From assembly GCA_964453265.1 (NCBI GenBank), contig CAYVNU010000002.1, positions 40,619-104,618 of the forward strand: a stretch of 64,000 bases of DNA, written 5' to 3'. This document shows positions 17,693 through 63,111 of the stretch, piece by piece. Below the pieces are notes generated by a model that worked only from the letters and a program-made list of their open reading frames with translations, ran no database searches and was not told the DNA's origin. Position 1 is the first letter of the stretch. Every line of letters begins with the position of its first letter. Origin of the DNA: an uncultured Candidatus Saccharibacteria bacterium (GTDB lineage Bacteria > Patescibacteriota > Doudnabacteria > UBA920). Position numbers and translations under genes: made by a program.

Positions 17693-17728
17693 AAAAAGAG
17701 CCTGTAATTACAGGCTCTTTTGTATTTT
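17693..17728. terminator. Bidirectional terminator hairpin
   Basis: aaaaa-gagcctgtaattacaggctc-ttttgtatttt. Confidence 0.55.
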
Positions 17729-30730: not shown

Positions 30731-33490
30731 TTATGATTTTTTATGATACGGCGCGTTTACCATTCCGCACTTTTTATACTTATACACTTTGCCGGTTTCG
30801 GGGTTAATTGCTCCGCAAGGGCAAGGGTCGTTGCGGCCTACATTTTCTGTTTTTACGCCTTCGGATGAATTATAATTTGAAGATAATAAGGGACTTTCAG
30901 TTTTATTGGTAACTAAATTGCTCGGAACAGAAGTTTGCTGATTTGCTGATAAATTGGGCTGAACATTAATATGAAAAATGGTATAAACCATTTGCTTGTT
31001 CATTTCTTTTATTAAGTTTTGAAACATAATAAAACCCTCTTTTTTGTACTCAACCAACGGGTCTCTTTGACCATAGCCTCTTAAGCGCACAGAGTCCCTT
31101 AAATGATCCATGGTATCTAAATGCTCCATCCATAAAGTATCCATAGCCTGCAAAGCTACAAAACGCATGGCTCCGTCAAACACTTCCTCTCCCATTTCTT
31201 TTTCTTTTTCCTCAAAAAGTTTTACCGCTTTTTGGCTCAGCGCGTCAACAACGGCAAATTCTTTATTTGCAGCGTTTTGAGCTGCGGTTTTTATTTCATT
31301 TGCCAAAGCTGTGTCAACAGGAATAATTGCGCCAATTGTTTTAATTAAGCTATCCCAATCTTCTTTAGTATTACCGTTTTCATCGAGAGTGTTTAAATTT
31401 TGAGTTGCTAGTTCCGAAAATTCATTCTTTATTAACTCCAAAAACTCTTCTTTCAATGTTTTACTATCTTCCAGTTTTTCCTTTGGATAGCCGGGCAAAA
31501 AACGCCTGCGGATTTTGTAAATTATATTGCGCTGATGGTTTAATACGTCATCAAATTCCAAAACGTGCTTGCGAGTGTCAAAGTTAAGGCCTTCAATTTT
31601 CTTTTGCGCAGATTCAATCGAGCGAGAGACCATTTTGGCCTCTATTGGCTGCTCGTCGGGAAGACCCAAAGAAGTCATAAGACTTTTCATCCGCTCACCA
31701 CCAAAAAGACGCATAAGGTCATCTTCCATGGAAACAAAGAACTGCGAAGAACCCGGGTCGCCTTGGCGTCCGGATCTACCTCTTAATTGATTGTCAATTC
31801 TGCGAGATTCATGGCGCTCCGTGCCTAAAATATGCAACCCACCGGCCTTTTTGACCGCTTCTGCCTCTTCAGGGTTAACCGGATTACCACCAAGCAAAAT
31901 GTCCACACCACGGCCGGCAATATTTGTAGCTAAAGTTACTGAACCAAAACGCCCGGCCTGAGAAATAATATGCGCTTCACGTTCATGATTTTTGGCATTT
32001 AAAATTTCAAATTGCACACCTTCCTTTTTTAAAACTTCCGCCAACATTTCATTTTTCGCAATACTAACAGTACCGATTAACACCGGTTGGCCTTTTTTAT
32101 TTCTCTCTTTAACTTCTTGAGCAATGGACTTAAATTTTGCTTCTTCAGTTTTATAAACTACATCGGGCAAATCTTGCCTAACCATAGTTCTGTTAGTCGG
32201 AATCTGTTCAATAGTCAGCCTATAAATTTTAAAGAATTCCTCTTCTTCAGTTTTCGCCGTGCCGGTCATGCCGGATAAAAACCAATACAGTCTAAACAAA
32301 TTCTGAAAAGTAATAGTGGCTAAGGTTTTACTTTCTTGTTGAATTTTTACATTTTCTTTCGCCTCAATTGCCTGATGAAGTCCTTCGCTATATCTACGGC
32401 CAAACATAAGCCTGCCAGTAAATTCGTCGACAATAATAATTTCTCCTTCACGGACAACATAATCACGGTCAACTTTAAACAAAGTTCTTGCTCTTAAAGC
32501 CTGCTCAATATGATGAATGGTAGTTACGCCTTTACTGGTGTCGTAAATATTCGGAACTTTTAAAATGCCTTCTATTTTATTTATACCCGCATCGGTTAAA
32601 CTGGCGGCTTTATGTTTTTCGTCTACTGTGTAGTCTAGTTTTTCATCTAAACGGTCGATAATTTTAGCGTATTCATAATATTTACTGGTCGGCTCAGTGT
32701 CGGGCGTACTAATAATTAAAGGCGTCCTGGCTTCATCTATTAAAATTGAGTCAACTTCGTCGACAATTGCAAAAAATAAATCACGCTGAGTCATTTGGCT
32801 AAAATGCTGAACCATGTTGTCGCGCAAATAATCAAAACCAAATTCATTGTTAGTTCCGTAAGTTATATCGGCCGCGTAAGCTTCTTTTCTGGTAATAGGT
32901 CTCATGTGCTTAACGTCTAAAACAAGTCCTTGAGTTTCGCCTTCCAACTTTTTTACTTCTTCGTCTTCCGGCTTATATTCCGGGTCATACAAAAAACTCG
33001 CTTCATGCTGAATGGAGGCAACGCTTAAGCCTAAAAATTTAAACAAAGGACCAATTAAAGAAGCTTGCCAGCGGGCTAAATAATCGTTAACGGTAACTAA
33101 ATGTGCGCCCTTGCCTGCAAGTGCATATAAAACCAAAGGCAAAGTAGCGGTTAAAGTCTTGCCTTCACCGGTTTTCATTTCTGAAATTTTGTTGTCTGAA
33201 AGCGCGAGTCCGCCGACAATTTGCACGTCGTAATGAGTTTGCCCCAAAGTTCTTTTACTAGCTTCTCTTACCAATGCAAAAACTCTGGTTCTTACTTCCA
33301 GAATTTTTTCTTTTATTTCTTCTTTGGTCTGCAGCTTAGAAAATTCCTGCTTAAAATTTGCTATTTCAGCCTGGATTTGTTCTTGAGTTAAACCCGCGAT
33401 TTCTTCTTTAAAACTATTAACTTCTAAAAGTTCGGTTTTATAGCTATCCAATGCGCTTTTTTCACCGAATAATTTGTTTAAAAATGACAT
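30731..33490 (-). CDS. secA: Preprotein translocase ATPase SecA
   Basis: 919 aa with DEAD motor motifs (MKTGEGKT, DEVDSILIDEARTPLIIS) and a C-terminal Cys-rich tail (CPCG...C). Confidence 0.95.
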   Translation of the reverse strand: MSFLNKLFGEKSALDSYKTELLEVNSFKEEIAGLTQEQIQAEIANFKQEFSKLQTKEEIKEKILEVRTRVFALVREASKRTLGQTHYDVQIVGGLALSDNKISEMKTGEGKTLTATLPLVLYALAGKGAHLVTVNDYLARWQASLIGPLFKFLGLSVASIQHEASFLYDPEYKPEDEEVKKLEGETQGLVLDVKHMRPITRKEAYAADITYGTNNEFGFDYLRDNMVQHFSQMTQRDLFFAIVDEVDSILIDEARTPLIISTPDTEPTSKYYEYAKIIDRLDEKLDYTVDEKHKAASLTDAGINKIEGILKVPNIYDTSKGVTTIHHIEQALRARTLFKVDRDYVVREGEIIIVDEFTGRLMFGRRYSEGLHQAIEAKENVKIQQESKTLATITFQNLFRLYWFLSGMTGTAKTEEEEFFKIYRLTIEQIPTNRTMVRQDLPDVVYKTEEAKFKSIAQEVKERNKKGQPVLIGTVSIAKNEMLAEVLKKEGVQFEILNAKNHEREAHIISQAGRFGSVTLATNIAGRGVDILLGGNPVNPEEAEAVKKAGGLHILGTERHESRRIDNQLRGRSGRQGDPGSSQFFVSMEDDLMRLFGGERMKSLMTSLGLPDEQPIEAKMVSRSIESAQKKIEGLNFDTRKHVLEFDDVLNHQRNIIYKIRRRFLPGYPKEKLEDSKTLKEEFLELIKNEFSELATQNLNTLDENGNTKEDWDSLIKTIGAIIPVDTALANEIKTAAQNAANKEFAVVDALSQKAVKLFEEKEKEMGEEVFDGAMRFVALQAMDTLWMEHLDTMDHLRDSVRLRGYGQRDPLVEYKKEGFIMFQNLIKEMNKQMVYTIFHINVQPNLSANQQTSVPSNLVTNKTESPLLSSNYNSSEGVKTENVGRNDPCPCGAINPETGKVYKYKKCGMVNAPYHKKS

Positions 33491-33580
33491 AAATATAGCT
33501 GTTTATTACCTAAAGAGTATATCATTATTACCGGCATTTGAAAACCCTTAAATTTAAGCTTGTTACTAATAATACTACAA

Positions 33581-33619
33581 GGCCGGCCATCATGATTTTG
33601 ATGGCCGGCTGGGTTTTTT
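33581..33619 (+). terminator. Strong terminator-like hairpin
   Basis: ggccggccatca-tgattt-tgatggccggc followed by tgggtttttt. Confidence 0.5.
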
Positions 33620-34079
33620 CCCGAAAAGTTTTTCAAACTTTTCGGGGCTCATCTCCTCAACCTTTCTGCCGGACATCCCGGCAAAAAATGAAGAGATTTC
33701 ATAGCACACCCTCAAGGTGTGCTCGGAGCTCCACTCAAACGAGTGGAGCTGATATGTTTTTCCCATACCGCCTCCTCGCAGGCAAGCCCAGCGCGCTTGT
33801 AATTCCCGCTATGTGATTTTGCGCTGGCGATTAGTTACAAAAATAACCAATCGCCAATTCAAATTTAGAGTCCTTTTGCACTAGCGTACTAGCCTGCCCG
33901 CCGACTCGTCCGACAAAGTCCGCCTCAGGCGGACGAAGTTGGAAGCTTTAGTGAAGGAGGGTACGGTGATACACGGAAATATTTAAGGGAAACCTCTTCT
34001 TAATCAACTATTTAAATAACTAACTAAGAAAGGGTGGCAGGTTTTTTAGGCCTGCCAAAATTGTTGATTTCAAAACTCA
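33620..34079. other. GC-rich hairpin-dense non-coding block
   Basis: Six or more perfect or near-perfect hairpins, for example cccgaaaagt/acttttcggg, agcacacc/ggtgtgct, gctccactc/gagtggagc, gtccgcc/ggcggac and ggcagg/cctgcc. The only ORF (33538..33816 +) looks spurious. Confidence 0.3.
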
Positions 34080-34526
34080 CTACTTCTCAAAAATTTTTTT
34101 CTGCAGGGAATTTATTAGACAAAAACGACTCTTTTGATTCTTGGACGTAATGATTTCCCCTTTACGCTCAGCCTTATAGAAGGCCTTTAAAACACCCAGT
34201 AGTTGTTTTGTCCAAAGCATTTTTTTGTACCCCTGAACTACAAAGGCTTCTAATTCCCTAGAGTATCTATTTTGAGAGGCAATTTCTGCCAGTAAATCTT
34301 CTTGAGTAATTTTTGCCATCAACAGCTCTCTAGCCTCTCGTTTTCGATCATTGGTTTCTATGACAACATATGTTTTCCCAGTCAAACTGCTCAGAGTTTT
34401 GAGCAATACAGCAATCTTTTGTTCCCGACGAGTAACAACTGAGTTATGGACAACTCCTTTTTGTTGAAAAACCATTGAACCCTCTTTCCTTGCAAGCGAG
34501 TACCCTAGCGCTCTTACCGCCTGCAT
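34080..34526 (-). CDS. Hypothetical protein (148 aa), an orphan ORF embedded in the GC-rich block
   Basis: ORF only. No recognisable motif. Flanked by the ttttgcgctgg direct repeats. Confidence 0.4.
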   Translation of the reverse strand: MQAVRALGYSLARKEGSMVFQQKGVVHNSVVTRREQKIAVLLKTLSSLTGKTYVVIETNDRKREARELLMAKITQEDLLAEIASQNRYSRELEAFVVQGYKKMLWTKQLLGVLKAFYKAERKGEIITSKNQKSRFCLINSLQKKIFEK

Positions 34527-34617
34527 TGTAGTTTTGCGCTGGTGACCAGGCTGTCATTCCAAACGTGGTGAGAAATCCCTTATAATTTAACGTTCGATCA
34601 TTGTTAGATAATCAAAA

Positions 34618-34682
34618 GTTAAGGGATCCCTCCGCTCCTCGCCAATTTTATTTCATTAAAATTGGCTCGTCGGTCGGGATGA
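34618..34682. repeat. Dispersed GC-rich repeat, copy R3 (gttaagggatccctccgctcctcgcc...cgggatg)
   Basis: Shares the 15-mer ttaagggatccctcc and the terminal cgggatg with R4. Confidence 0.45.
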
Positions 34683-34859
34683 CAAAACTCATCAAAACAA
34701 AACCACCTTCCGCAAAGAAAGGTGGTTAGGAAAGTTTTGTAACAATGCTAAACCCCAGACTTTGCGAAAGAAGGCAAAGTCCACCAAGCTGATACTGTAT
34801 ATTTTATAACTGCTTTACTCATAAAAATATGATAAACCATCGACTGGCCTATGTCAATA

Positions 34860-34873
34860 GCGTACTAGTACGC
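34860..34873. promoter_or_regulatory. Perfect 14-bp palindrome gcgtactagtacgc, a TrpR-family operator-like CTAG site upstream of yerC
   Basis: Perfect palindrome located 105 bp upstream of the TrpR-like gene. A related CTAG-n4-CTAG site (ctagcgtactag) lies at 33881-33892. Confidence 0.4.
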
Positions 34874-34977
34874 TGAAACACATAAATAATTAAGTTTATT
34901 TGAATTATCCACATCTTTATTTACAAAATCTTTTACTAATGTTACCGTACAAGTAACTCTACTAATAACAAATATTT

Positions 34978-35268
34978 ATGAAATACAAGCATGAGTACGG
35001 TGTAGAATTAGAAAAGTTAATAGAAAAAATAGGTCAAACCAAAGACAATAAACTAATGCGTGAGTTTTTGTTTGATTTACTCTCCCCTGCTGAGTACCGA
35101 GAAGTGGCTGTTAGATGGCAAATTGTCAAAATGCTTAACAAAAACATTCCACACCGGGAAATATCTAAAACACTAAAAGTTGGTTTAGCTACAATAAACC
35201 GAGGCGCGAGAGAATTGGTCAATAAAAAAGGCGGCTTTAAAACTGTATTAAATAAATTTTTTAAATAA
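34978..35268 (+). CDS. yerC: TrpR-like DNA-binding protein (YerC/YecD family)
   Basis: 96 aa. The stretch REVAVRWQIVKML...ISKTLKVGLATINRGAREL matches the TrpR/YerC helix-turn-helix. Confidence 0.75.
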   Translation: MKYKHEYGVELEKLIEKIGQTKDNKLMREFLFDLLSPAEYREVAVRWQIVKMLNKNIPHREISKTLKVGLATINRGARELVNKKGGFKTVLNKFFK

Positions 35269-35742: not shown

Positions 35743-36957
35743 TCACACTAATTCTTTTAAATCAGAGTCAGAAAAACCTATTAATTCCGGCTCAATGTGG
35801 ATATTTATCCCGAGCTTTTCTAGGGCGGTTTTTTTAACTTGCTTAGCCAGATTTAAGACATCGCTTGCGGTAGCTTTGCCGGTTTGGTTAATTATAACCA
35901 AAGGTTGATTTTTATTAATAGCCGCCCCACCGAAAGCAAAATCTTTCAATCCGCAAATATCAAGCAAAAATGCAGTTGGTACTTTTACGCTATTGGCGTC
36001 AGTAAATTTTTTCTGTTCAAGTTTTTCAGCAGTTTCTTGGCCAAATTCTTTTTGCAACCTATTTTTTAAAATTAAAAATTCTTCTTGATTTAAAATTAAA
36101 TTTTTAAAAAATGAGCCGGCGTTACCTTTTTTAGCTTCTGTGGGAAACGGAAATTTTTTATTTCTTATTTCTATAATTGCCTGACGAATTTCTAACAGGC
36201 TTGGCTTTATATTGGCAAATTTTTGAGCTAAATCTCGGTAATTTAAAATCGGCAGAGGGTTTTTTGAAAGTTTAAAGACAATTTCAAAAATAATATACCT
36301 GCCTTTTTCAGTGCTATTAAATATGCTCTTTCGATACGAAAATCCGCAATCTGTTTTATTTAGACTTAATATTTGATGGGTTTGTTTGTCAAAAACCGTT
36401 ACAGATTCTATGAGATTTTTAGCTTCCTGTCCGTAAGCCCCGACATTTTGCACGGCAATAGCACCTGTGCTCCCGGGAATATGCGATAAATTTTCCATTC
36501 CCCACCAATTATTTTTTACCGCAAAATCAACCACACTGTCCCAATTTTCACCTGAAGCCACTTTAAGAAAAATAAAATTTTTATCCGATCCGAGTCCGCC
36601 AATTGGCGGAGAGGAATCGATTTTTTGTACATGCTGATTTATATTAAGGGATCCCTCCTCCTTCGTTAAAGCTTCGGCGGACAAGTCGGCCGCACTCGGG
36701 ATGGTTAAAACATGAAAACTTTCGATTACTTCAATCCCCTTATTTACAACCCTAATAACCAACCCGCTAAATCCACTGTCAGCTATTAATAAATTACTAC
36801 CCCCGCCCAAAATAAACACGGGTAAGTTTTTTGCTTGAGCAAATTCAAAAGCCGTTAAAGCATCAAACTGGTCTTTAACCTCGCAAAAATATTTGGCCGG
36901 CCCGCCTATTTTAAAAGTGGTGTAAGGTGCTAATTGTATATTTTCTAAAACTTTCAT
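35743..36957 (-). CDS. murB: UDP-N-acetylenolpyruvoylglucosamine reductase MurB, carrying an in-frame repeat-derived insertion
   Basis: N-terminal FAD-binding motifs (YTTFKIGGPAKYF, ILGGGSNLL). The 404-aa length exceeds typical MurB, and the dispersed GC-rich repeat at 36645-36705 lies in-frame inside it. Confidence 0.85.
   Translation of the reverse strand: MKVLENIQLAPYTTFKIGGPAKYFCEVKDQFDALTAFEFAQAKNLPVFILGGGSNLLIADSGFSGLVIRVVNKGIEVIESFHVLTIPSAADLSAEALTKEEGSLNINQHVQKIDSSPPIGGLGSDKNFIFLKVASGENWDSVVDFAVKNNWWGMENLSHIPGSTGAIAVQNVGAYGQEAKNLIESVTVFDKQTHQILSLNKTDCGFSYRKSIFNSTEKGRYIIFEIVFKLSKNPLPILNYRDLAQKFANIKPSLLEIRQAIIEIRNKKFPFPTEAKKGNAGSFFKNLILNQEEFLILKNRLQKEFGQETAEKLEQKKFTDANSVKVPTAFLLDICGLKDFAFGGAAINKNQPLVIINQTGKATASDVLNLAKQVKKTALEKLGINIHIEPELIGFSDSDLKELV
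36645..36705. repeat. Dispersed GC-rich repeat, copy R4, in-frame inside murB
   Basis: ttaagggatccctcctccttcgttaaagcttcggcggacaagtcggccgcactcgggatgg. In the murB frame it encodes TIPSAADLSAEALTKEEGSLN. Confidence 0.5.
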
Positions 36958-44614: not shown

Positions 44615-45677
44615 ATTTAATACTATCTCTAATAGAATTTTTAAACTTTTCCTTGCTAAATTTTACAGATTGTTGCTTTAAACCATTCAAACTAAATTTT
44701 TCCACTTCCCAGTTTAAAATAAGCTTTTTAATTTTTTCTTTGTCATAATTTTCAAACAACTCCCCAGTTACGCCGGGTACAACTGTTTCTAAAGCTCCGC
44801 CTTTGGCGTAAGCTAAAGTGGCCGTTCCGCAAGCAGCCGCCTCTAGCGGCATAAGGCCAAAATCTTCAACCTGGGGGTAAATAAAGCCTAAGGCTCCACT
44901 ATATTCGTCCCTGAGCTTAGCATCATCCACCGCTCCTAAAAATAGAATATTTGGCTTTGCAATTCCTCTTAAATACTCCGCTTGCCTGCCGGTGCCAACC
45001 ACATGAAGTAGCAAGCCAAGTTCATTAAATATTTCCACTATAAGTTCGTTATTTTTATGCGGCTGAAGTCGTCCGGCAATTAAAAAGTAATCCTGTTTTT
45101 CTACGGTTTTCTGCCAAAAATTAACATCGACACCCGGGTACACTACCGTACTAGTACACTGATAAACAGATAAAATGCGTTTTTGGACTTCTATTGAATT
45201 AGCAATAAATTGTGTAACGCGCTTTGACCCCGCCAAATCCCACTTGCGCATTTTACTAAGAAGATATTTTACAAATGGTCTTAATAAAAAAGGCACTTCT
45301 TGCTTTACGTAATTTTTATCTATCCACAAAAATCTGGGCGGCGTGTGACAATAGCAAATATGTTTAACGGTTTTAGGAACACGAATATTTTTTACAAACC
45401 CAGAACTGGACGAAATAACAACATCAAAGCCGCTAAAATCTAATTGGTCAACAGCCCAAGGTATCCAGGGCAAAAGGTATTGAAACTTGCCCAAGGCTAA
45501 ATACAAAGTCTGCAGCGGCGAAGTTCGAATGTCCCAAGTCTTATATTTTTCCTTAAACTTTGGATCAAAAACCAAAGTAAAAACAGGCGCGCCTGGAAAA
45601 AGTTCGTGGAGATGTTCAACCACGCGCTCCGCTCCTCCCATTTGAGTAAAACTGTCATGGACAATAGCAATTTTCAT
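44598..45677 (-). CDS. Glycosyltransferase family 4
   Basis: FGLMPLEAAACGT motif. Overlaps the downstream GT gene by 17 nt. Confidence 0.8.
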   Translation of the reverse strand: MKIAIVHDSFTQMGGAERVVEHLHELFPGAPVFTLVFDPKFKEKYKTWDIRTSPLQTLYLALGKFQYLLPWIPWAVDQLDFSGFDVVISSSSGFVKNIRVPKTVKHICYCHTPPRFLWIDKNYVKQEVPFLLRPFVKYLLSKMRKWDLAGSKRVTQFIANSIEVQKRILSVYQCTSTVVYPGVDVNFWQKTVEKQDYFLIAGRLQPHKNNELIVEIFNELGLLLHVVGTGRQAEYLRGIAKPNILFLGAVDDAKLRDEYSGALGFIYPQVEDFGLMPLEAAACGTATLAYAKGGALETVVPGVTGELFENYDKEKIKKLILNWEVEKFSLNGLKQQSVKFSKEKFKNSIRDSIKYENRD

Positions 45678-54242: not shown

Positions 54243-54632
54243 TTAGGTCTTTTCAGATGCATTTTTTCTACCGCTTCCAGCAGTCTTTCTAACATTACCT
54301 CTTCTGGTTCTAGAATTAGTTTTAGTTCTCTGACCTCTGACCGGTAAACCTTTTATATGCCTAATGCCTCTATAACTCTGAATTTCCTTCATTCTTTTAA
54401 TATTAAGTAGAACCTGCTGTCTCAATTCACCTTCTACTTTAAAACTTTTTTCAATAAATTCTCGGATTTTATTTAACTCAGCTTCAGACAAATCTTTAGT
54501 GCGCTTATTTGGGTCAATGTTCGTAGCTGCCAAAATTTTCTTTGACAAGGTTAAGCCTACGCCATAAATATAAGGCAATGCCGCTTCAATTCTCTTTTCA
54601 TTTGGAATATTAATACCTGCGATACGAGCCAT
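54243..54632 (-). CDS. rpsM: 30S ribosomal protein S13
   Basis: [26 protein letters not shown]. Confidence 0.9.
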
Positions 54633-54725
54633 GTTATATTTGATAATTTATAATTAATAACTAATAACTTAAAAACCTTAAGGCTTAGAAATTACCAATT
54701 AATAATTATTAATTGGGTTTAAAAA

Positions 54726-55233: not shown

Positions 55234-56874
55234 TCACTTATTCACTTTTTTTTCTACCAAAATTTCAATTCTTTGACTTATTAATGGAAGATTTTTTTGC
55301 CAAGTTGGAGCCAAAGTAATTTCTATTGCGTCAATTTCTGCTTTTGACTTTAAAACTTCACTTGCCTGGTTTTGACTTTTCCCTTTTATTTGATTTGCAA
55401 AACTATCCGGATTTATGTTGTAAAAAGCAAAACCTTCAAAATGCGCCTGAATTGTTGCTGATTCTGAAGCTAAATCTATTGTTTTTAACTTAAATGATAG
55501 TTGAGAATCATCAAAATTAATTGTTTTGTTACCCAAAATAGTTTGTTTTATTCTGGAATTAATTAAGTTTTCCATTTCAAGAGATTTAAAAGCAAGTGCG
55601 TTTACAGTTGCGCTTAAATTTGCATTAAAGCTAGGACTCTCAACCCCTGCAAGTTTATCGGGCACAAATATAATATTATCAAGAACATATGCTTTATCAA
55701 CAATAGCTAAATTTTGAGACTTAAGTTCGTCGTAAAATTTTGACAAGAGCATTTCGCCAAGTTGCTGCCTTGCATAGGACAAATCTTGCTCAGAAATAAC
55801 AGACAAATATCTAGAATTACCGCCCGAAATTGGGGTTTGTGTTTTTGCATATAAAAGCAAAGGCCTGCTACCAAAAATTTGATTACTTATTTCTATTCTA
55901 GTACCAGCCGGAATATTATAACTCTCACCACCCTGTTCCGAAATTATTTCGTAGGTCTCTGAGAGACTAATTTCATCTACTTCCTTTGTCTGAGCATTTT
56001 TATAAACTGTTGGTTTTATTGCAGTCGCGTCTTTTACCAATAAGTAATTACGATTACCTAAAGAAAAACTAGTTGTACTAGCTTTTAAATTTATAGGCAG
56101 CTTTGTAAAGTTATAAATTCTAACTAAGCCCGAGGATTTACTCCCCACTTCTCGCTTTCCTTGAGTAGAAAATTTACCAGAAACCTCGACTTTACTGGAA
56201 ATCTTATTAGCCGGCAAAAGCAATCTATTTACGTCAGGTACTTGATTTTGTGTTGATATGGCGACTTCAATGTCTCTAGTTACTGGCTCAGCTTTCGCAT
56301 AAAGTACAATTTTAGCTTTCGGAAGAACTAAAAAAACCAAGACCAAAACGAAAGCCAAACATACTGCCAATAAACTATAAATAATTTTTTGATTAAAGTT
56401 TACTTTTTTACTCGCTTTATAAACTTCTTCTGCTTCTTTAGGAAAAATTACATCGTTAACTTCGACTTGTGGCAATGTCTGGCTAATTTGAGTTTGAACT
56501 GTTTTTACTTTATTAACCGGAGCGGGTTTGGAAATATTTTGTTGTTTATCTGCTTCATGAATAATTTGAGGCAGTGTAACATTTTTTTTAACAACATCAG
56601 AAAATCCGCCTGATTTTTTTACTTGTGGTAAAAATTTCAAACTAAACCCGGCTTCTCTGGCATACATTTGCCCCCGTTCATCCATGGTTAAAATAAAAAC
56701 TTCTCTGCCTAACAAATCAGTCTGTTTTTTTAACAACCTTAAGTTAATGCTGTCGTTAAATAAAAAACATCTTTTTGGACAAACCAAAACCAAGCTAGAA
56801 TTTTTTTCTTTTTTTATTCTAGCTATGACTTTAGGGACATCATCTTCAAGATTAATGTAGATGGAAGGGATCAT
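55234..56874 (-). CDS. Hypothetical single-pass membrane protein (546 aa)
   Basis: A cytoplasmic N-domain of about 150 aa, one TM helix (IIYSLLAVCLAFVLVLVFLVL), and a large C-terminal extracytoplasmic domain. Confidence 0.6.
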   Translation of the reverse strand: MIPSIYINLEDDVPKVIARIKKEKNSSLVLVCPKRCFLFNDSINLRLLKKQTDLLGREVFILTMDERGQMYAREAGFSLKFLPQVKKSGGFSDVVKKNVTLPQIIHEADKQQNISKPAPVNKVKTVQTQISQTLPQVEVNDVIFPKEAEEVYKASKKVNFNQKIIYSLLAVCLAFVLVLVFLVLPKAKIVLYAKAEPVTRDIEVAISTQNQVPDVNRLLLPANKISSKVEVSGKFSTQGKREVGSKSSGLVRIYNFTKLPINLKASTTSFSLGNRNYLLVKDATAIKPTVYKNAQTKEVDEISLSETYEIISEQGGESYNIPAGTRIEISNQIFGSRPLLLYAKTQTPISGGNSRYLSVISEQDLSYARQQLGEMLLSKFYDELKSQNLAIVDKAYVLDNIIFVPDKLAGVESPSFNANLSATVNALAFKSLEMENLINSRIKQTILGNKTINFDDSQLSFKLKTIDLASESATIQAHFEGFAFYNINPDSFANQIKGKSQNQASEVLKSKAEIDAIEITLAPTWQKNLPLISQRIEILVEKKVNK

Positions 56875-62151: not shown

Positions 62152-63111
62152 TTAAACCTGTTTGCTCACTACCGGATTTTTTTTAAAAAAGTTTATAACT
62201 ACCAATAAAAACAGCCTAAAATATATCCCCAAAAACACCAACCAGTTTAAAACAAACAAATATTTCTGGGCGTAATGTTTTTTATAAAAAATCCACATAG
62301 CCTCATGAAACCACTTTAAGGCTTTAAAAGGCGTCTTGCGCGACGAAGAACCTTTGTAGTGTGTGATAGATGTCTTTGGATAATACCAAACCTTGTACCC
62401 CGCCTCTTTAACACGCCAGCATAAATCTAAGTCCTCGCCGTACATAAAAAAGTCCTCGTCAAACAACCATGATCTCGTCTCCTTTACATTTTGCATTTTG
62501 AATTCTGAATTCCTCATTAACATAAACGCTCCCATGCAAGCATCAATTTCCTGAGACGCATTTTCGTCTGTGTCTAGCATATTATAATTAGCATTCGATA
62601 TTTTAAGTAGACGTAATAAACTATTCCAAGGGTTTGGAAATCTACGACGACAAGCTAAATCTAATTTGCCGTTCGGCAGCATTACTTTACAAGTACTAAT
62701 TCCAATTTCCCCGTGCTCTTCCATAAACTCATGCATAGTTTTAAGCGTATCTTTTTCAAGTTTAGTGTCCGGGTTTAAAATAAGTAAATACTTTCCTTTA
62801 GCTTCTTTGATTCCTAAATTATTTCCACAAGCAAAACCGTTATTTGAATTAAAAATCACTTTACAAAGTTCACGGCCGTGAACTTTGTAAAGTTCGGTTA
62901 TATAATCTTTTAACCATTTTTCTGTACCGTCGGTTGAACCATTATCAACTATAATTATTTCAGTTTTGTAGCGTGCTGATTTATCGGTCTCCTGATTGCC
63001 CATAAATGGGCGCGCTACAATATCAATTCCCTCACTCCCAAAAACACTCGGCAAAAGCCGCTCTAAGTCGTTTTTGGAATTATATGAAAGAATAATTATT
63101 GAAATATCCAT
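62152..63111 (-). CDS. Glycosyltransferase family 2
   Basis: ILSYNSKNDL...VDNGSTDGT N-terminal GT-A motifs, and a C-terminal TM helix. Confidence 0.8.
   Translation of the reverse strand: MDISIIILSYNSKNDLERLLPSVFGSEGIDIVARPFMGNQETDKSARYKTEIIIVDNGSTDGTEKWLKDYITELYKVHGRELCKVIFNSNNGFACGNNLGIKEAKGKYLLILNPDTKLEKDTLKTMHEFMEEHGEIGISTCKVMLPNGKLDLACRRRFPNPWNSLLRLLKISNANYNMLDTDENASQEIDACMGAFMLMRNSEFKMQNVKETRSWLFDEDFFMYGEDLDLCWRVKEAGYKVWYYPKTSITHYKGSSSRKTPFKALKWFHEAMWIFYKKHYAQKYLFVLNWLVFLGIYFRLFLLVVINFFKKNPVVSKQV

What the first reader, a model, noticed from the sequence alone, without database searches (positions are those of the whole stretch)
33881..34873. CTAG-type palindromes resembling trp-operator half-sites flanking the TrpR-like yerC gene
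gcgtactagtacgc (34860-34873) is a perfect 14-bp palindrome located 105 bp upstream of the TrpR-family YerC/YecD gene. About 1 kb away, ctagcgtactag (33881-33892) has the CTAG-n4-CTAG architecture of the E. coli trp operator (ACTAGTTAACTAGT). TrpR-family proteins recognise CTAG-centred sites, so these are plausible YerC operators: one for autoregulation, and one that may control the orphan ORF or structured-RNA block. The target regulon of YerC/YecD proteins is essentially unknown, which makes a predicted operator useful. A similar site (ccgtactagtacac) occurs inside the GT4 gene at about 45150, where it may be coincidental.
Basis: partly seen in the sequence, partly recalled or inferred. Interest (0 to 1): 0.5.

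Follow-up and report, generated by a model that had tools for sequence, protein, structure and literature searches.

The report
Conserved Trp-repressor operator and attenuator
The palindrome upstream of the small regulator gene is very probably a real operator, nearly identical to the E. coli tryptophan-repressor site and conserved across many candidate-phyla-radiation bacteria next to a tryptophan-codon leader peptide; the second site is a broken remnant and the third is probably chance.

Summary
Site B (AGCGTACTAGTACGCT, 34859-34874) is far beyond chance. GTACTAGTAC lies beside the orthologous gene in 40 of 50 Patescibacteria loci (61 exact copies in 279 kb; 0.05-0.3 expected).

The regulator is not YerC/HisR-like. 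It scores higher on the TrpR model, keeps the TrpR DNA-contact and Trp-sandwich arginines, and in relatives sits beside trpS, trpE/B/C/D, prsA, DAHP synthase, or a serK-like/trpB2 pair.

B abuts the -35 of a near-consensus divergent promoter. That promoter drives a leaderless 24-codon leader peptide with tandem Trp codons (MSKAVIKYTVSAWWTLPSFAKSGV), followed by antiterminator and terminator hairpins. This is E. coli-style dual control, repressor plus attenuation, and it is conserved in at least 13 relatives.

Here it carries a private CTAG-to-CAAG mutation.

Site A is half of an ancestral perfect operator, split by a 69-nt GC-rich insertion; deleting the insertion in silico restores GTACTAGTAC. 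Site C lies in coding sequence and is not conserved.

In this genome the controlled unit holds no trp gene, only an orphan ORF and a conserved RNA hairpin.

Verdict: new member of a known kind. No binding or expression was tested.

The parts
34859..34874 (.). Site B, the distal operator. A 16-bp perfect palindrome AGCGTACTAGTACGCT with core GTACTAGTAC. CTAG-like units sit 8 bp to either side (ATAG and CTGA).
   Evidence: The core is invariant in 12 aligned relatives and in the 95%-identical relative. Flank conservation follows an 8-bp period.
34829..34857 (-). Divergent promoter P_L: -35 TTGACA (34857-34852), 17-nt spacer, -10 TATCAT (34834-34829). The -35 starts 2 nt after the 14-bp palindrome, and the flanking operator unit overlaps it.
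   Evidence: 11 of 12 consensus matches. TTGACA plus a -10 hexamer are conserved in relatives.
34748..34822 (-). Leaderless leader-peptide ORF MSKAVIKYTVSAWWTLPSFAKSGV*. The ATG lies 6 nt after the -10. The tandem Trp codons are at 34786-34781.
   Evidence: WW or W leader peptides occupy the same place in 13 related loci, and KSWWG-type leaders occur in Nomurabacteria-type loci.
34701..34766 (-). Attenuator RNA. Helix 1:2 pairs 34782-34774 with 34765-34757. The antiterminator (2:3) pairs about 34766-34751 with 34728-34711. The intrinsic terminator (3:4) is at 34727-34701, followed by TTTTGTTTTG.
   Evidence: Terminator. Helix energies are -11.4, -16.6 and -15.5 kcal/mol. The architecture is conserved.
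34947..34956 (.). Proximal, autoregulatory operator, degenerate here: GTACAAGTAA in place of GTACTAGTAC. It overlaps the inferred -10 of the regulator gene.
   Evidence: Every aligned relative has CTAG here. The 95%-identical relative has GTACTAGTAA, so CAAG is private to this genome.
34920..34948 (+). Inferred promoter of the regulator gene: -35 TTTACA (34920-34925), 17-nt spacer ending in TGT, -10 TACCGT (34943-34948).
   Evidence: Inferred from the alignment (conserved TTGACA-17-TGnTAyyGT). It is below the threshold of the scanner.
34978..35268 (+). TrpR-type repressor gene, 96 aa.
   Evidence: Pfam Trp_repressor 2.2e-20. NCBIfam scores TrpR above YerC. The model has pLDDT 94.5 and six helices, and matches E. 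coli TrpR at TM 0.64-0.71.
33877..33892 (.). Site A, the left part of a split ancestral operator (plus strand TGCACTAGCGTACTAG). It keeps two CTAG units 8 bp apart and one GNACT half-site.
   Evidence: It ranks 7th in the window on a one-dimer matrix.
33893..33961 (.). GC-rich insertion that splits the site A operator. It is the 30-nt element CCTGCCCGCCGAAGCTTTAGtGAAGGAGGG carrying a nested 39-nt hairpin at 33905-33943.
   Evidence: In-silico excision restores GTACTAGTAC in the window, L001 and L002. Other copies are at 942-965 and 36657-36680.
33962..33974 (.). Right part of the split site A operator (TACGGTGATACAC).
   Evidence: It matches the right-flank consensus TACrCTrAwACA of intact operators.
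33788..33827 (-). D1a hairpin leader (CCAGCGC...GCGCTGG), lying before the ribosome-binding site and ATG of ORF58.
   Evidence: 16 copies, with G-C to A-U covariation.
34504..34542 (-). D1b hairpin leader, lying before the ribosome-binding site and ATG of ORF131.
   Evidence: It is 98% identical over 63 nt to L001 and L002.
34080..34475 (-). ORF131, an orphan ORF and the first ORF downstream of the attenuator.
   Evidence: The only significant match among 1.84 billion representative proteins is the ORF itself.
33590..33766 (-). ORF58, a small ORF just upstream of secA, with homologues in L011 and L012.
   Evidence: tblastn 3e-10 and 8e-11.
45146..45159 (.). Site C, CCGTACTAGTACAC inside the GT4 gene (codons C-T-S-T). 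Probably coincidental.

Best explanation
Site B is the main operator of a tryptophan repressor of the TrpR type, encoded by the adjacent 96-aa gene.

Inferred mechanism:
1. With L-tryptophan bound, repressor dimers sit in tandem on the CTAG-centred palindrome. Each dimer uses one perfect inner half-site (GTACT) and one weaker outer half-site 8 bp away.
2. The dimer on the left covers the -35 hexamer of a strong divergent promoter and shuts it off.
3. That promoter makes a leaderless transcript starting at the ATG of a 24-codon leader peptide with two adjacent Trp codons.
4. When charged tRNA-Trp is scarce, the ribosome stalls on those codons. An antiterminator forms and transcription reads through. 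Otherwise a terminator stops it about 125 nt from the start.

Tryptophan is therefore sensed twice, as in the E. coli trp operon.

A second operator over the regulator gene's own -10 gives autorepression in relatives. In this genome it carries a CTAG-to-CAAG change and is probably weakened.

Site A is what remains of a third operator, which once stood before the hairpin-led small ORF upstream of secA. A GC-rich repeat inserted at its centre, so at best one dimer can still bind.

Shown here: sequence conservation, co-location with trp genes in relatives, promoter and terminator matches, and helix energies. Inferred: protein binding, Trp as corepressor, and the direction of regulation.
For: Conservation:
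- GTACTAGTAC lies beside the orthologous gene in 40 of 50 loci. Two more have GCACTAGTGC and three have a one-mismatch copy at -15 to -43.
- There are 61 exact copies against 0.05-0.3 expected.
- All 19 Doudnabacteria-type loci have it upstream, usually twice, at about -110 and about -30.

Family and residues:
- The site matches the published TrpR half-site GNACT and motif TGTAcTnGTnnACnAgTACA (PMC9413887).
- The protein keeps the equivalents of Arg69, Ala80, Thr81 and Arg84 (DNA contacts) and of Arg54, Arg84 and Thr44-to-Ser (Trp pocket) in the HMM alignment to E. coli TrpR. Residue roles are from established knowledge of TrpR.
- TrpR scores above YerC on the NCBIfam models.
- The fold matches E. 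coli TrpR.

Context in relatives:
- TrpRS immediately upstream.
- Anthranilate synthase, IGPS, a TrpD-TrpC fusion, TrpB-like PALP enzymes, PRPP synthetase and DAHP synthase downstream of the palindrome.
- TrpB2 (2.4e-213) with a SerK/SbnI-like protein.

Local signals:
- Promoter with 11 of 12 consensus matches abutting B, and an intrinsic terminator downstream.
- WW leader peptides in 13 loci of this clade and KSWWG leaders in the Nomurabacteria clade.
- Three alternative helices of -11.4, -16.6 and -15.5 kcal/mol, with the stop codon placed over region 2.
- Flank positions at +/-9 and +/-13 conserved with an 8-bp period.
- The proximal site overlaps a conserved TGnTAyyGT -10.
- Site A: excision restores the operator in three genomes, and a perfect palindrome stands at the homologous place in L003, L005 and L006.
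Against: - No experiment: binding, the corepressor and the transcript starts are all inferred.
- The protein is below the curated cut-offs of both the TrpR and the YerC models. By sequence and by fold it is about equally distant from E. coli TrpR and from HisR-like structures.
- B is centred near -44 of the divergent promoter, a position also typical of activators.
- An equilibrium fold with a stalled ribosome still predicts the terminator, so the antitermination argument is kinetic.
- In this window the attenuated unit holds no trp gene. Its first ORF is an orphan, so what is being regulated is unknown, and the module could be decaying. Three of four ancestral operators at this locus are damaged.
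Confidence: 0.78

Rival explanations
1. The gene is a YerC/YecD-type protein with an unknown regulon, B is its autoregulatory operator, and A is a working operator for the orphan ORF or RNA block.
For: The protein is in Pfam Trp_repressor. It has a C-terminal GGF motif resembling the DGY of YerC-like structures, and its best PDB sequence hit is 3FRW. B is upstream of the gene. A has the CTAG-N4-CTAG spacing.
Against: The YerC/YecD model scores only 28.8 bits against a 42.2 cut-off, lower than the TrpR model. The HisR motif is absent in 51 of 51 upstream regions. Neighbouring genes are trp genes, not his genes. The autoregulatory site in relatives is the proximal one over the -10. A is a split remnant, and L002 has already lost one of its CTAGs.
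Confidence: 0.07
2. B is a TrpR-type site but works as an auxiliary or upstream site for the regulator gene's own promoter, through cooperativity with the proximal site, or as an activator site for the divergent promoter. On this view the leader promoter is not repressed and is controlled only by attenuation.
For: B is centred at about -44.5 of the divergent start and about -88 of the gene's own start. Two operators per intergenic region is the rule in this clade.
Against: The divergent promoter matches the consensus at 11 of 12 positions and should not need activation. The outer half-site of the operator lies inside the -35 hexamer (sequence). Spacing between the distal and proximal sites varies from 72 to 108 bp among relatives without helical phasing. 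In the Nomurabacteria clade the same palindrome overlaps the -10 of the trp-gene promoter, a repressor position.
Confidence: 0.12
3. Site A is still a working single-dimer operator, acting for example as a roadblock or weak repressor site for the D1a/ORF58 unit upstream of secA, rather than a dead relic.
For: It keeps CTAG-TACG-CTAG with one perfect half-site (AGTGC on the minus strand) and ranks 7th of about 128,000 positions on a one-dimer matrix. It is identical in L001. The CTAG bases are the most critical in E. coli operators (established knowledge).
Against: The GTACTAGTAC core is destroyed. Two apparently random sites score higher in the same window. L002 has CAAG in one unit. The surrounding block is about 84% identical anyway, so conservation of 12 nt carries no weight. 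No promoter is recognisable downstream.
Confidence: 0.25
4. The palindromes are chance, or are DNA or RNA structural elements unrelated to the regulator, such as hairpins, recombination sites or restriction sites.
For: The window holds 19 perfect palindromes of 14 bp or more. CTAG-N4-CTAG occurs in 24% of shuffles. Site C lies in coding sequence.
Against: There are 61 exact copies against at most 0.3 expected, and 56 lie next to the regulator gene across several Patescibacteria classes. B lies upstream of both inferred transcript starts, so it is not in RNA.
Confidence: 0.02

Closest known systems
E. coli TrpR and its operators (trpEDCBA, aroH, trpR)
   Same: Same Pfam family and fold. Same recognition sequence, GNACT/CTAG (PMC9413887). 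The operator sits over a -35 at one promoter and over the -10/+1 at the regulator's own promoter, as recalled for aroH and trpR. Autoregulation. The regulon in relatives includes DAHP synthase and trp genes. The 8-bp periodicity fits tandem dimer binding; PDB 1TRR is titled 'tandem binding ... half-site complex'. I recall the 1TRR oligonucleotide as AGCGTACTAGTACGCT, identical to site B, but could not verify this here.
   Different: Symmetry is centred on CTAG itself (GTACT|AGTAC adjacent), not on the 4-bp spacer between two CTAGs. The protein is 26-28% identical, lacks the N-terminal arm, has one residue fewer between helices C and D, and ends in a conserved NKKGGF motif. The host is a Patescibacteria (CPR) bacterium.
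E. coli-type trp leader-peptide attenuator (trpL)
   Same: A short ORF with tandem Trp codons, three alternative helices (1:2, 2:3, 3:4), a stop codon that places the ribosome over region 2, and an intrinsic terminator. It is combined with a TrpR operator at the same promoter.
   Different: The leader peptide mRNA appears leaderless, with the ATG 6-9 nt after the -10 and no Shine-Dalgarno sequence. In this genome no trp gene follows. In relatives the cargo is a serK-like/trpB2 indole-salvage pair rather than a full trp operon.
HisR (B. subtilis YerC; YerC/YecD family)
   Same: TrpR-family fold, about 95 aa, 20-bp palindromic operators, frequent autoregulation (PMC9413887). Similar PDB scores.
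   Different: The HisR motif is cacTTTAnnnnnnTAAAgtg, with Tyr in place of Arg69 and histidine as corepressor. Here the motif is absent, Arg69 is kept, the neighbours are trp genes, and the TIGR02531 score is below cut-off.
Rickettsia palindromic elements (in-frame selfish repeats), as a comparison for the insertion that split site A
   Same: A short GC-rich hairpin repeat found between genes and in frame inside a housekeeping gene (murB).
   Different: Only about 30 nt long. The sequence is unrelated, the mobilisation mechanism is unknown, and it is found in many metagenome contigs of 32-60% GC. The resemblance is recalled, not tested.

Membership tests
TrpR family (Pfam PF01371) | Trp_repressor domain above the gathering score | tested here: met
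   73 bits against a 27 cut-off, E 2.2e-20.
TrpR family (Pfam PF01371) | Six-helix TrpR fold with a helix-turn-helix at helices D and E | tested here: met
   AlphaFold model with pLDDT 94.5 and six helices. Foldseek TM 0.64-0.71 to E. coli TrpR chains, probability 1.00. The intertwined dimer was not modelled.
Trp operon repressor proper (NCBIfam TIGR01321 equivalog) | HMM score above the curated cut-off | tested here: not met
   48.9 bits against a 67.25 cut-off. It is the best-scoring model but is sub-threshold.
Trp operon repressor proper (function) | Operator of the GNACT/CTAG type next to regulated promoters | tested here: met
   GTACTAGTAC is conserved at promoters in 40 of 50 loci. The motif definition is from PMC9413887.
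Trp operon repressor proper (function) | Regulon of tryptophan or aromatic biosynthesis genes plus the repressor's own gene | tested here: inconclusive
   Met in relatives: trpE, trpB, trpC, trpD-C, prsA, DAHP synthase and trpB2 lie behind the palindrome. Not met in this window, where no trp gene occurs in 64 kb.
Trp operon repressor proper (function) | L-tryptophan as corepressor | not testable with these tools
   Only indirect evidence: the Arg54, Arg84 and Thr44(Ser) equivalents are conserved, and there is a Trp-codon attenuator at the same promoter.
YerC/YecD (HisR) subfamily (TIGR02531) | HMM score above the curated cut-off | tested here: not met
   28.8 bits against a 42.2 cut-off.
YerC/YecD (HisR) subfamily | cacTTTA-N6-TAAAgtg operator upstream of his genes or of the regulator gene | tested here: not met
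   No strict match in 51 upstream regions or in the window. The loose pattern is at chance level, 11 observed against 7.8 expected.
Leader-peptide transcription attenuator (trpL type) | Short ORF with consecutive codons of the regulatory amino acid | tested here: met
   WW at codons 13-14 in the window. WW or W at the same place in 13 loci of this clade, and KSWWG leaders in a second clade.
Leader-peptide transcription attenuator (trpL type) | Intrinsic terminator plus a mutually exclusive antiterminator whose formation depends on ribosome position | tested here: met
   Terminator. Helices 1:2, 2:3 and 3:4 are at -11.4, -16.6 and -15.5 kcal/mol, and the stop codon overlies region 2. Conserved. 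The kinetic behaviour was not tested.
Leader-peptide transcription attenuator (trpL type) | Biosynthetic genes for that amino acid downstream | tested here: not met
   In the window the downstream ORF is an orphan. The feature is met in L006, L008 and L012, which have serK-like plus trpB2.

The most novel reading that the evidence does not exclude
In this lineage a complete tryptophan-sensing switch survives although the trp genes it controls in relatives are gone from the locus. The switch comprises the TrpR-type repressor, its operator and a leaderless Trp-codon attenuator. It now drives units made of a conserved, undescribed RNA hairpin leader (D1) followed by small fast-evolving or orphan ORFs next to secA. 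If that is a working arrangement and not decay, tryptophan supply would be used as a general nutritional or host signal by an auxotrophic CPR bacterium to control non-metabolic genes. Meanwhile a 30-nt selfish hairpin element is eroding the other operators.
Probability: 0.25. Interest if true: 0.7.

Novelty: new member of a known kind. Interest (0 to 1): 0.55.

Why it matters
- It gives a concrete, testable regulon prediction for a transcription factor in the candidate phyla radiation, where almost no regulation has been worked out. The prediction covers the protein, a 28-bp operator, the likely corepressor and the target promoters.
- It shows that the TrpR recognition code (GNACT/CTAG) and the repressor-plus-attenuator logic of the E. 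coli trp operon extend to a very distant, genome-reduced lineage.
- It corrects an annotation-style error: the protein is a TrpR type, not YerC/HisR.
- The operator form, a single CTAG-centred palindrome flanked by weak 8-bp-spaced units, looks like a natural case of the tandem-binding mode seen in crystals.
- In searches of the held paper library I found no description of TrpR control in Patescibacteria.

Tried and rejected
- Rfam, whole window at gathering score and 33400-35050 at E up to 10: nothing for the structured block, the D1 hairpin or the attenuator.
- Literature search for the 10-mer GTACTAGTAC: only primers, nothing on TrpR. I therefore could not verify my recollection that the 1TRR oligonucleotide equals site B.
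- Symmetric position matrix with an invariant core: too harsh to rank degenerate sites. I replaced it with a one-dimer matrix.
- RNAalifold on the MAFFT alignment of D1 copies: no structure, because the 3' arm was misaligned. I tabulated the covariation by hand instead.
- Equilibrium folding with a masked ribosome footprint: does not by itself switch to the antiterminator, so the argument rests on co-transcriptional order.
- ORF131: no Pfam family, and the only significant match among 1.84 billion representatives is the ORF itself.
- Remnants of trpB2, serK or DAHP synthase: none in the window or in 33480-34860.
- Site C as a real intragenic operator: rejected as unlikely. The four closest GT4 homologues (78-87% identity) have a different residue at the Thr encoded by ACT in the core.
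- The 56068 site (ACTAGTTGTACTAGC): intragenic, with a 9-bp rather than 8-bp period.
- A and B as a target-site duplication flanking a mobile element: considered because of their 21-nt direct repeat. Rejected because both are copies of the same operator-plus-(-35) module, found many times in relatives.
Full report
**Observation**

All three sequences are at the stated coordinates.
- Site B is gcgtactagtacgc at 34860-34873, 105 bp before the ATG at 34978. It is in fact a 16-bp perfect palindrome, AGCGTACTAGTACGCT, 34859-34874.
- Site A is ctagcgtactag at 33881-33892, the only CTAG-N4-CTAG in the window.
- Site C is ccgtactagtacac at 45146-45159, inside a minus-strand GT4 gene.

Taken alone these are only moderately unusual.
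- CTAG is not depleted (120 observed, 132 expected).
- The window holds 19 perfect palindromes of 14 bp or more.
- CTAG-N4-CTAG appears in 24% of shuffles.
- The exact 10-mer GTACTAGTAC is expected 0.01-0.07 times and occurs twice.

**The gene**

The ORF at 34978-35268 is a Pfam Trp_repressor protein. It scores 48.9 bits on NCBIfam TrpR and 28.8 on YerC/YecD, both below their cut-offs.

A profile search of the PDB places it about equally far from E. coli TrpR and from the YerC/HisR-like structures 3FRW, 3KOR and 3G1C. A confident model (pLDDT 94.5, six helices) agrees: TM is 0.64-0.71 to E. coli TrpR and 0.67-0.70 to the HisR-like structures.

The HMM alignment to E. coli TrpR shows the equivalents of Arg69, Ala80, Thr81 and Arg84 (DNA contacts) and of Arg54, Arg84 and Thr44-to-Ser (tryptophan pocket) conserved in 40 homologues. 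Residue roles are from established knowledge of TrpR.

The literature shows that B. subtilis YerC is HisR, a histidine repressor (PMC9413887). HisR binds cacTTTAnnnnnnTAAAgtg and has Tyr in place of Arg69. That motif is absent here and in all 51 related upstream regions.

**Comparative test of site B**

I fetched 51 loci encoding relatives from Patescibacteria genomes.
- All 19 Doudnabacteria-type loci carry the palindrome upstream of the gene. Seventeen have GTACTAGTAC and two have GCACTAGTGC.
- It is usually present twice, at about -110 (AGCGTACTAGTACGCT, as in the window) and at about -30.
- Three more distant loci have it at -8 to -13.
- In about 25 Nomurabacteria-type loci it lies 60-80 bp after the stop codon of the gene.
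- In total there are 61 exact copies in 279 kb against 0.05-0.3 expected, and 56 of them are within about 500 bp of the gene.

Flanks are conserved at +/-6, 8, 9, 13 and 14, giving TGTnnyAryGTACTAGTACryTrnnACA. This is an 8-bp periodicity of CTAG-like units.

The core equals two adjacent inverted copies of the published TrpR half-site GNACT. Adjacent copies cannot be bound by one dimer in the canonical geometry, which needs 8 bp between half-sites. They do fit two dimers in tandem, each using one inner perfect and one outer weak half-site. That is the mode named in the title of PDB 1TRR.

**What the relatives' sites control**

In the Nomurabacteria-type loci:
- The gene follows a class I W/Y tRNA synthetase gene.
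- The palindrome overlaps an extended -10 (TGyTAyyAT|GTACTAGTAC) of a promoter.
- That promoter leads to anthranilate synthase, IGPS, a TrpD-TrpC fusion, TrpB-like PALP enzymes or PRPP synthetase.

In the Doudnabacteria-type loci:
- L006, L008 and L012 have a divergent unit made of a SerK/SbnI-like ParB-domain protein plus TrpB2 (NF009057, 2.4e-213). [quoted passage not shown]
- L010 has a DAHP synthase.

This is a tryptophan regulon.

**Site B in the window**

- A minus-strand promoter with 11 of 12 consensus matches starts 2 nt from the palindrome: TTGACA at 34857-34852, a 17-nt spacer, and TATCAT ending at 34829.
- The outer half-site of the left-hand dimer falls inside the -35 hexamer.
- Six nucleotides after the -10 comes an ATG (34822) opening MSKAVIKYTVSAWWTLPSFAKSGV*. 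It has tandem Trp codons at 34786-34781 and no Shine-Dalgarno sequence, so the mRNA is leaderless.
- An intrinsic terminator follows at 34727-34701.
- Three alternative helices exist: 1:2 at -11.4, 2:3 (antiterminator) at -16.6, and 3:4 (terminator) at -15.5 kcal/mol. Helix 1:2 starts right after the Trp codons.
- The stop codon places a finishing ribosome on region 2.
- Thirteen related loci have a leader peptide with WW or W at the same codon positions and the same helices. The Nomurabacteria clade has KSWWG leaders.

The arrangement is the E. coli design of repressor plus attenuator.

**Autoregulation**

In relatives the proximal palindrome overlaps a conserved TTGACA-17-TGnTAyyGT promoter of the regulator gene, and the -10 ends in the GT of the palindrome.

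The window has TTTACA (34920-34925), a 17-nt spacer, and TACCGT (34943-34948), followed by GTACAAGTAA (34947-34956). The closest relative (95% protein identity) has GTACTAGTAA. The CTAG-to-CAAG change is therefore private to this genome and probably weakens autorepression.

**Site A**

On the minus strand, site A reads GGCTAGTACGCTAGTGCAAAAGG. It lies about 50 nt upstream of a covarying hairpin and the D1a leader of ORF58.
- At the homologous place L003, L005 and L006 have a perfect operator. In L003 it is CCTTTTGCATCATCGTACTAGTACGATGATGCAAAAGG.
- In the window, L001 and L002, deleting CCCTCCTTC...GGGCAGG restores GTACTAGTAC with normal flanks. That segment is 30 nt in L001 and L002 and 69 nt in the window (plus strand 33893-33961).
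- The inserted 24-nt core recurs exactly at 942-965. It also recurs with one mismatch in frame inside murB at 36657-36680.

Site A is therefore half of an operator split by a dispersed repeat. What is left could bind one dimer: two CTAGs 8 bp apart and one perfect half-site. On a one-dimer matrix it ranks 7th in the window, below two apparently random sites. L002 has already lost one CTAG. I rate it a probable relic.

**Site C and others**

Site C encodes C-T-S-T. Homologues mostly have R-[TDNE]-S-[TE] at this position. The four closest (78-87% identity) have a different residue at the Thr encoded by ACT in the core. It is probably coincidental.

The only other near-operator, ACTAGTTGTACTAGC at 56068, is intragenic with a 9-bp period. 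Among GNACTAGTNC matches in the window, only B is intergenic.

**What is regulated here**

No trpB2, serK-like or DAHP synthase gene occurs in the 64 kb, and no remnant occurs at the locus. After the terminator, in order, come:
1. A strongly structured 5' region (z = -3.8). It replaces the operator module that L001 and L002 have at that place.
2. The D1b hairpin.
3. ORF131, an orphan.
4. The split site A.
5. D1a.
6. ORF58, which has homologues in L011 and L012.
7. secA.

D1 has 16 copies. CCAGCGC always pairs with GCGCTGG, and CCAGCAC pairs with GTGCTGG or a close variant. It is an undescribed hairpin leader.

Of four ancestral operators at this locus, only B is intact.

**Verdict**

- It is wrong on the family label, on which promoter B most directly serves, and on the state of A.
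- This is a new member of a known kind: TrpR operator plus trp attenuator, in the candidate phyla radiation. I found no prior description in the searchable library.
- Binding, corepressor and transcript ends remain to be tested.

Noticed in passing
window 33893-33961; 942-965; 36657-36680; loci L056-L135: A 30-nt GC-rich hairpin element, (c)TTGyCCGCCGAAGCTTTAGCGAAGGAGGr, is dispersed. It splits the site A operator, sits between genes at 942, and lies in frame inside murB. Some contigs carry tandem copies at a 33-36 nt period (L073, L076, L128). About 20 of 86 copies lie in long open frames. The mobilisation mechanism is unknown.
   Followed up: partly
window 35746-36957 (murB, minus strand), insert around 36560-36700: MurB carries a 44-aa insertion (IESFHVLTIPSAADLSAEALTKEEGSLNINQHVQKIDSSPPIGGLGSDKN) that is absent from five orthologues and shorter in L002. 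The extra DLSAEALTKE is the GC-rich element translated in frame.
   Followed up: partly
window 33788-33827 and 34504-34542 (minus strand); 14 further copies in L001-L019: D1 is a conserved hairpin leader (CCAGCRC, 21-59 nt loop with CAAAnnnACA, then GYGCTGG) that sits directly before the ribosome-binding site and ATG of small non-homologous ORFs in the Trp-controlled units. It shows clean G-C to A-U covariation, and a possible alternative helix CAAGC/GCTTG flanks the 3' arm. It is not in Rfam.
   Followed up: partly
window 34545-34700 (minus strand): The 5' region between the attenuator terminator and D1b is strongly structured (MFE -70.4 kcal/mol, z = -3.8). It has no counterpart in L001 or L002, which have a TrpR operator module there instead. 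It shares GGAGGGATCCCTTAA with the murB insert.
   Followed up: partly
window 33590-33766 (minus strand): ORF58 (MGKTYQLHSFEW...) is a small ORF immediately upstream of secA with homologues in L011 and L012 (E about 1e-10). Its function is unknown. Two strong hairpins lie inside and after it (33727-33750, 33581-33610).
   Followed up: partly
window 34820-34834 and 13 related loci: The Trp leader peptides start 6-9 nt after the -10 hexamer with no Shine-Dalgarno sequence, so they appear to be translated from leaderless mRNAs.
   Followed up: partly
L006:601-2320, L008:35-1232, L012:999-2706: A ParB-domain protein resembling serine kinase SerK/SbnI is paired with TrpB2 under TrpR/attenuator control. 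This suggests indole salvage with phosphoserine in these CPR bacteria. The phosphoserine preference of TrpB2 is recalled, not checked.
   Followed up: no
window 54600-54697 (minus strand): The only Rfam hit at gathering score in the window is the Alpha operon ribosome binding site (39.2 bits against a 38 cut-off).
   Followed up: no
window 62858-62893; 17694-17721; 54695-54716: Long perfect palindromes of 36, 28 and 22 bp (for example ACTTTACAAAGTTCACGGCCGTGAACTTTGTAAAGT). Not examined.
   Followed up: no
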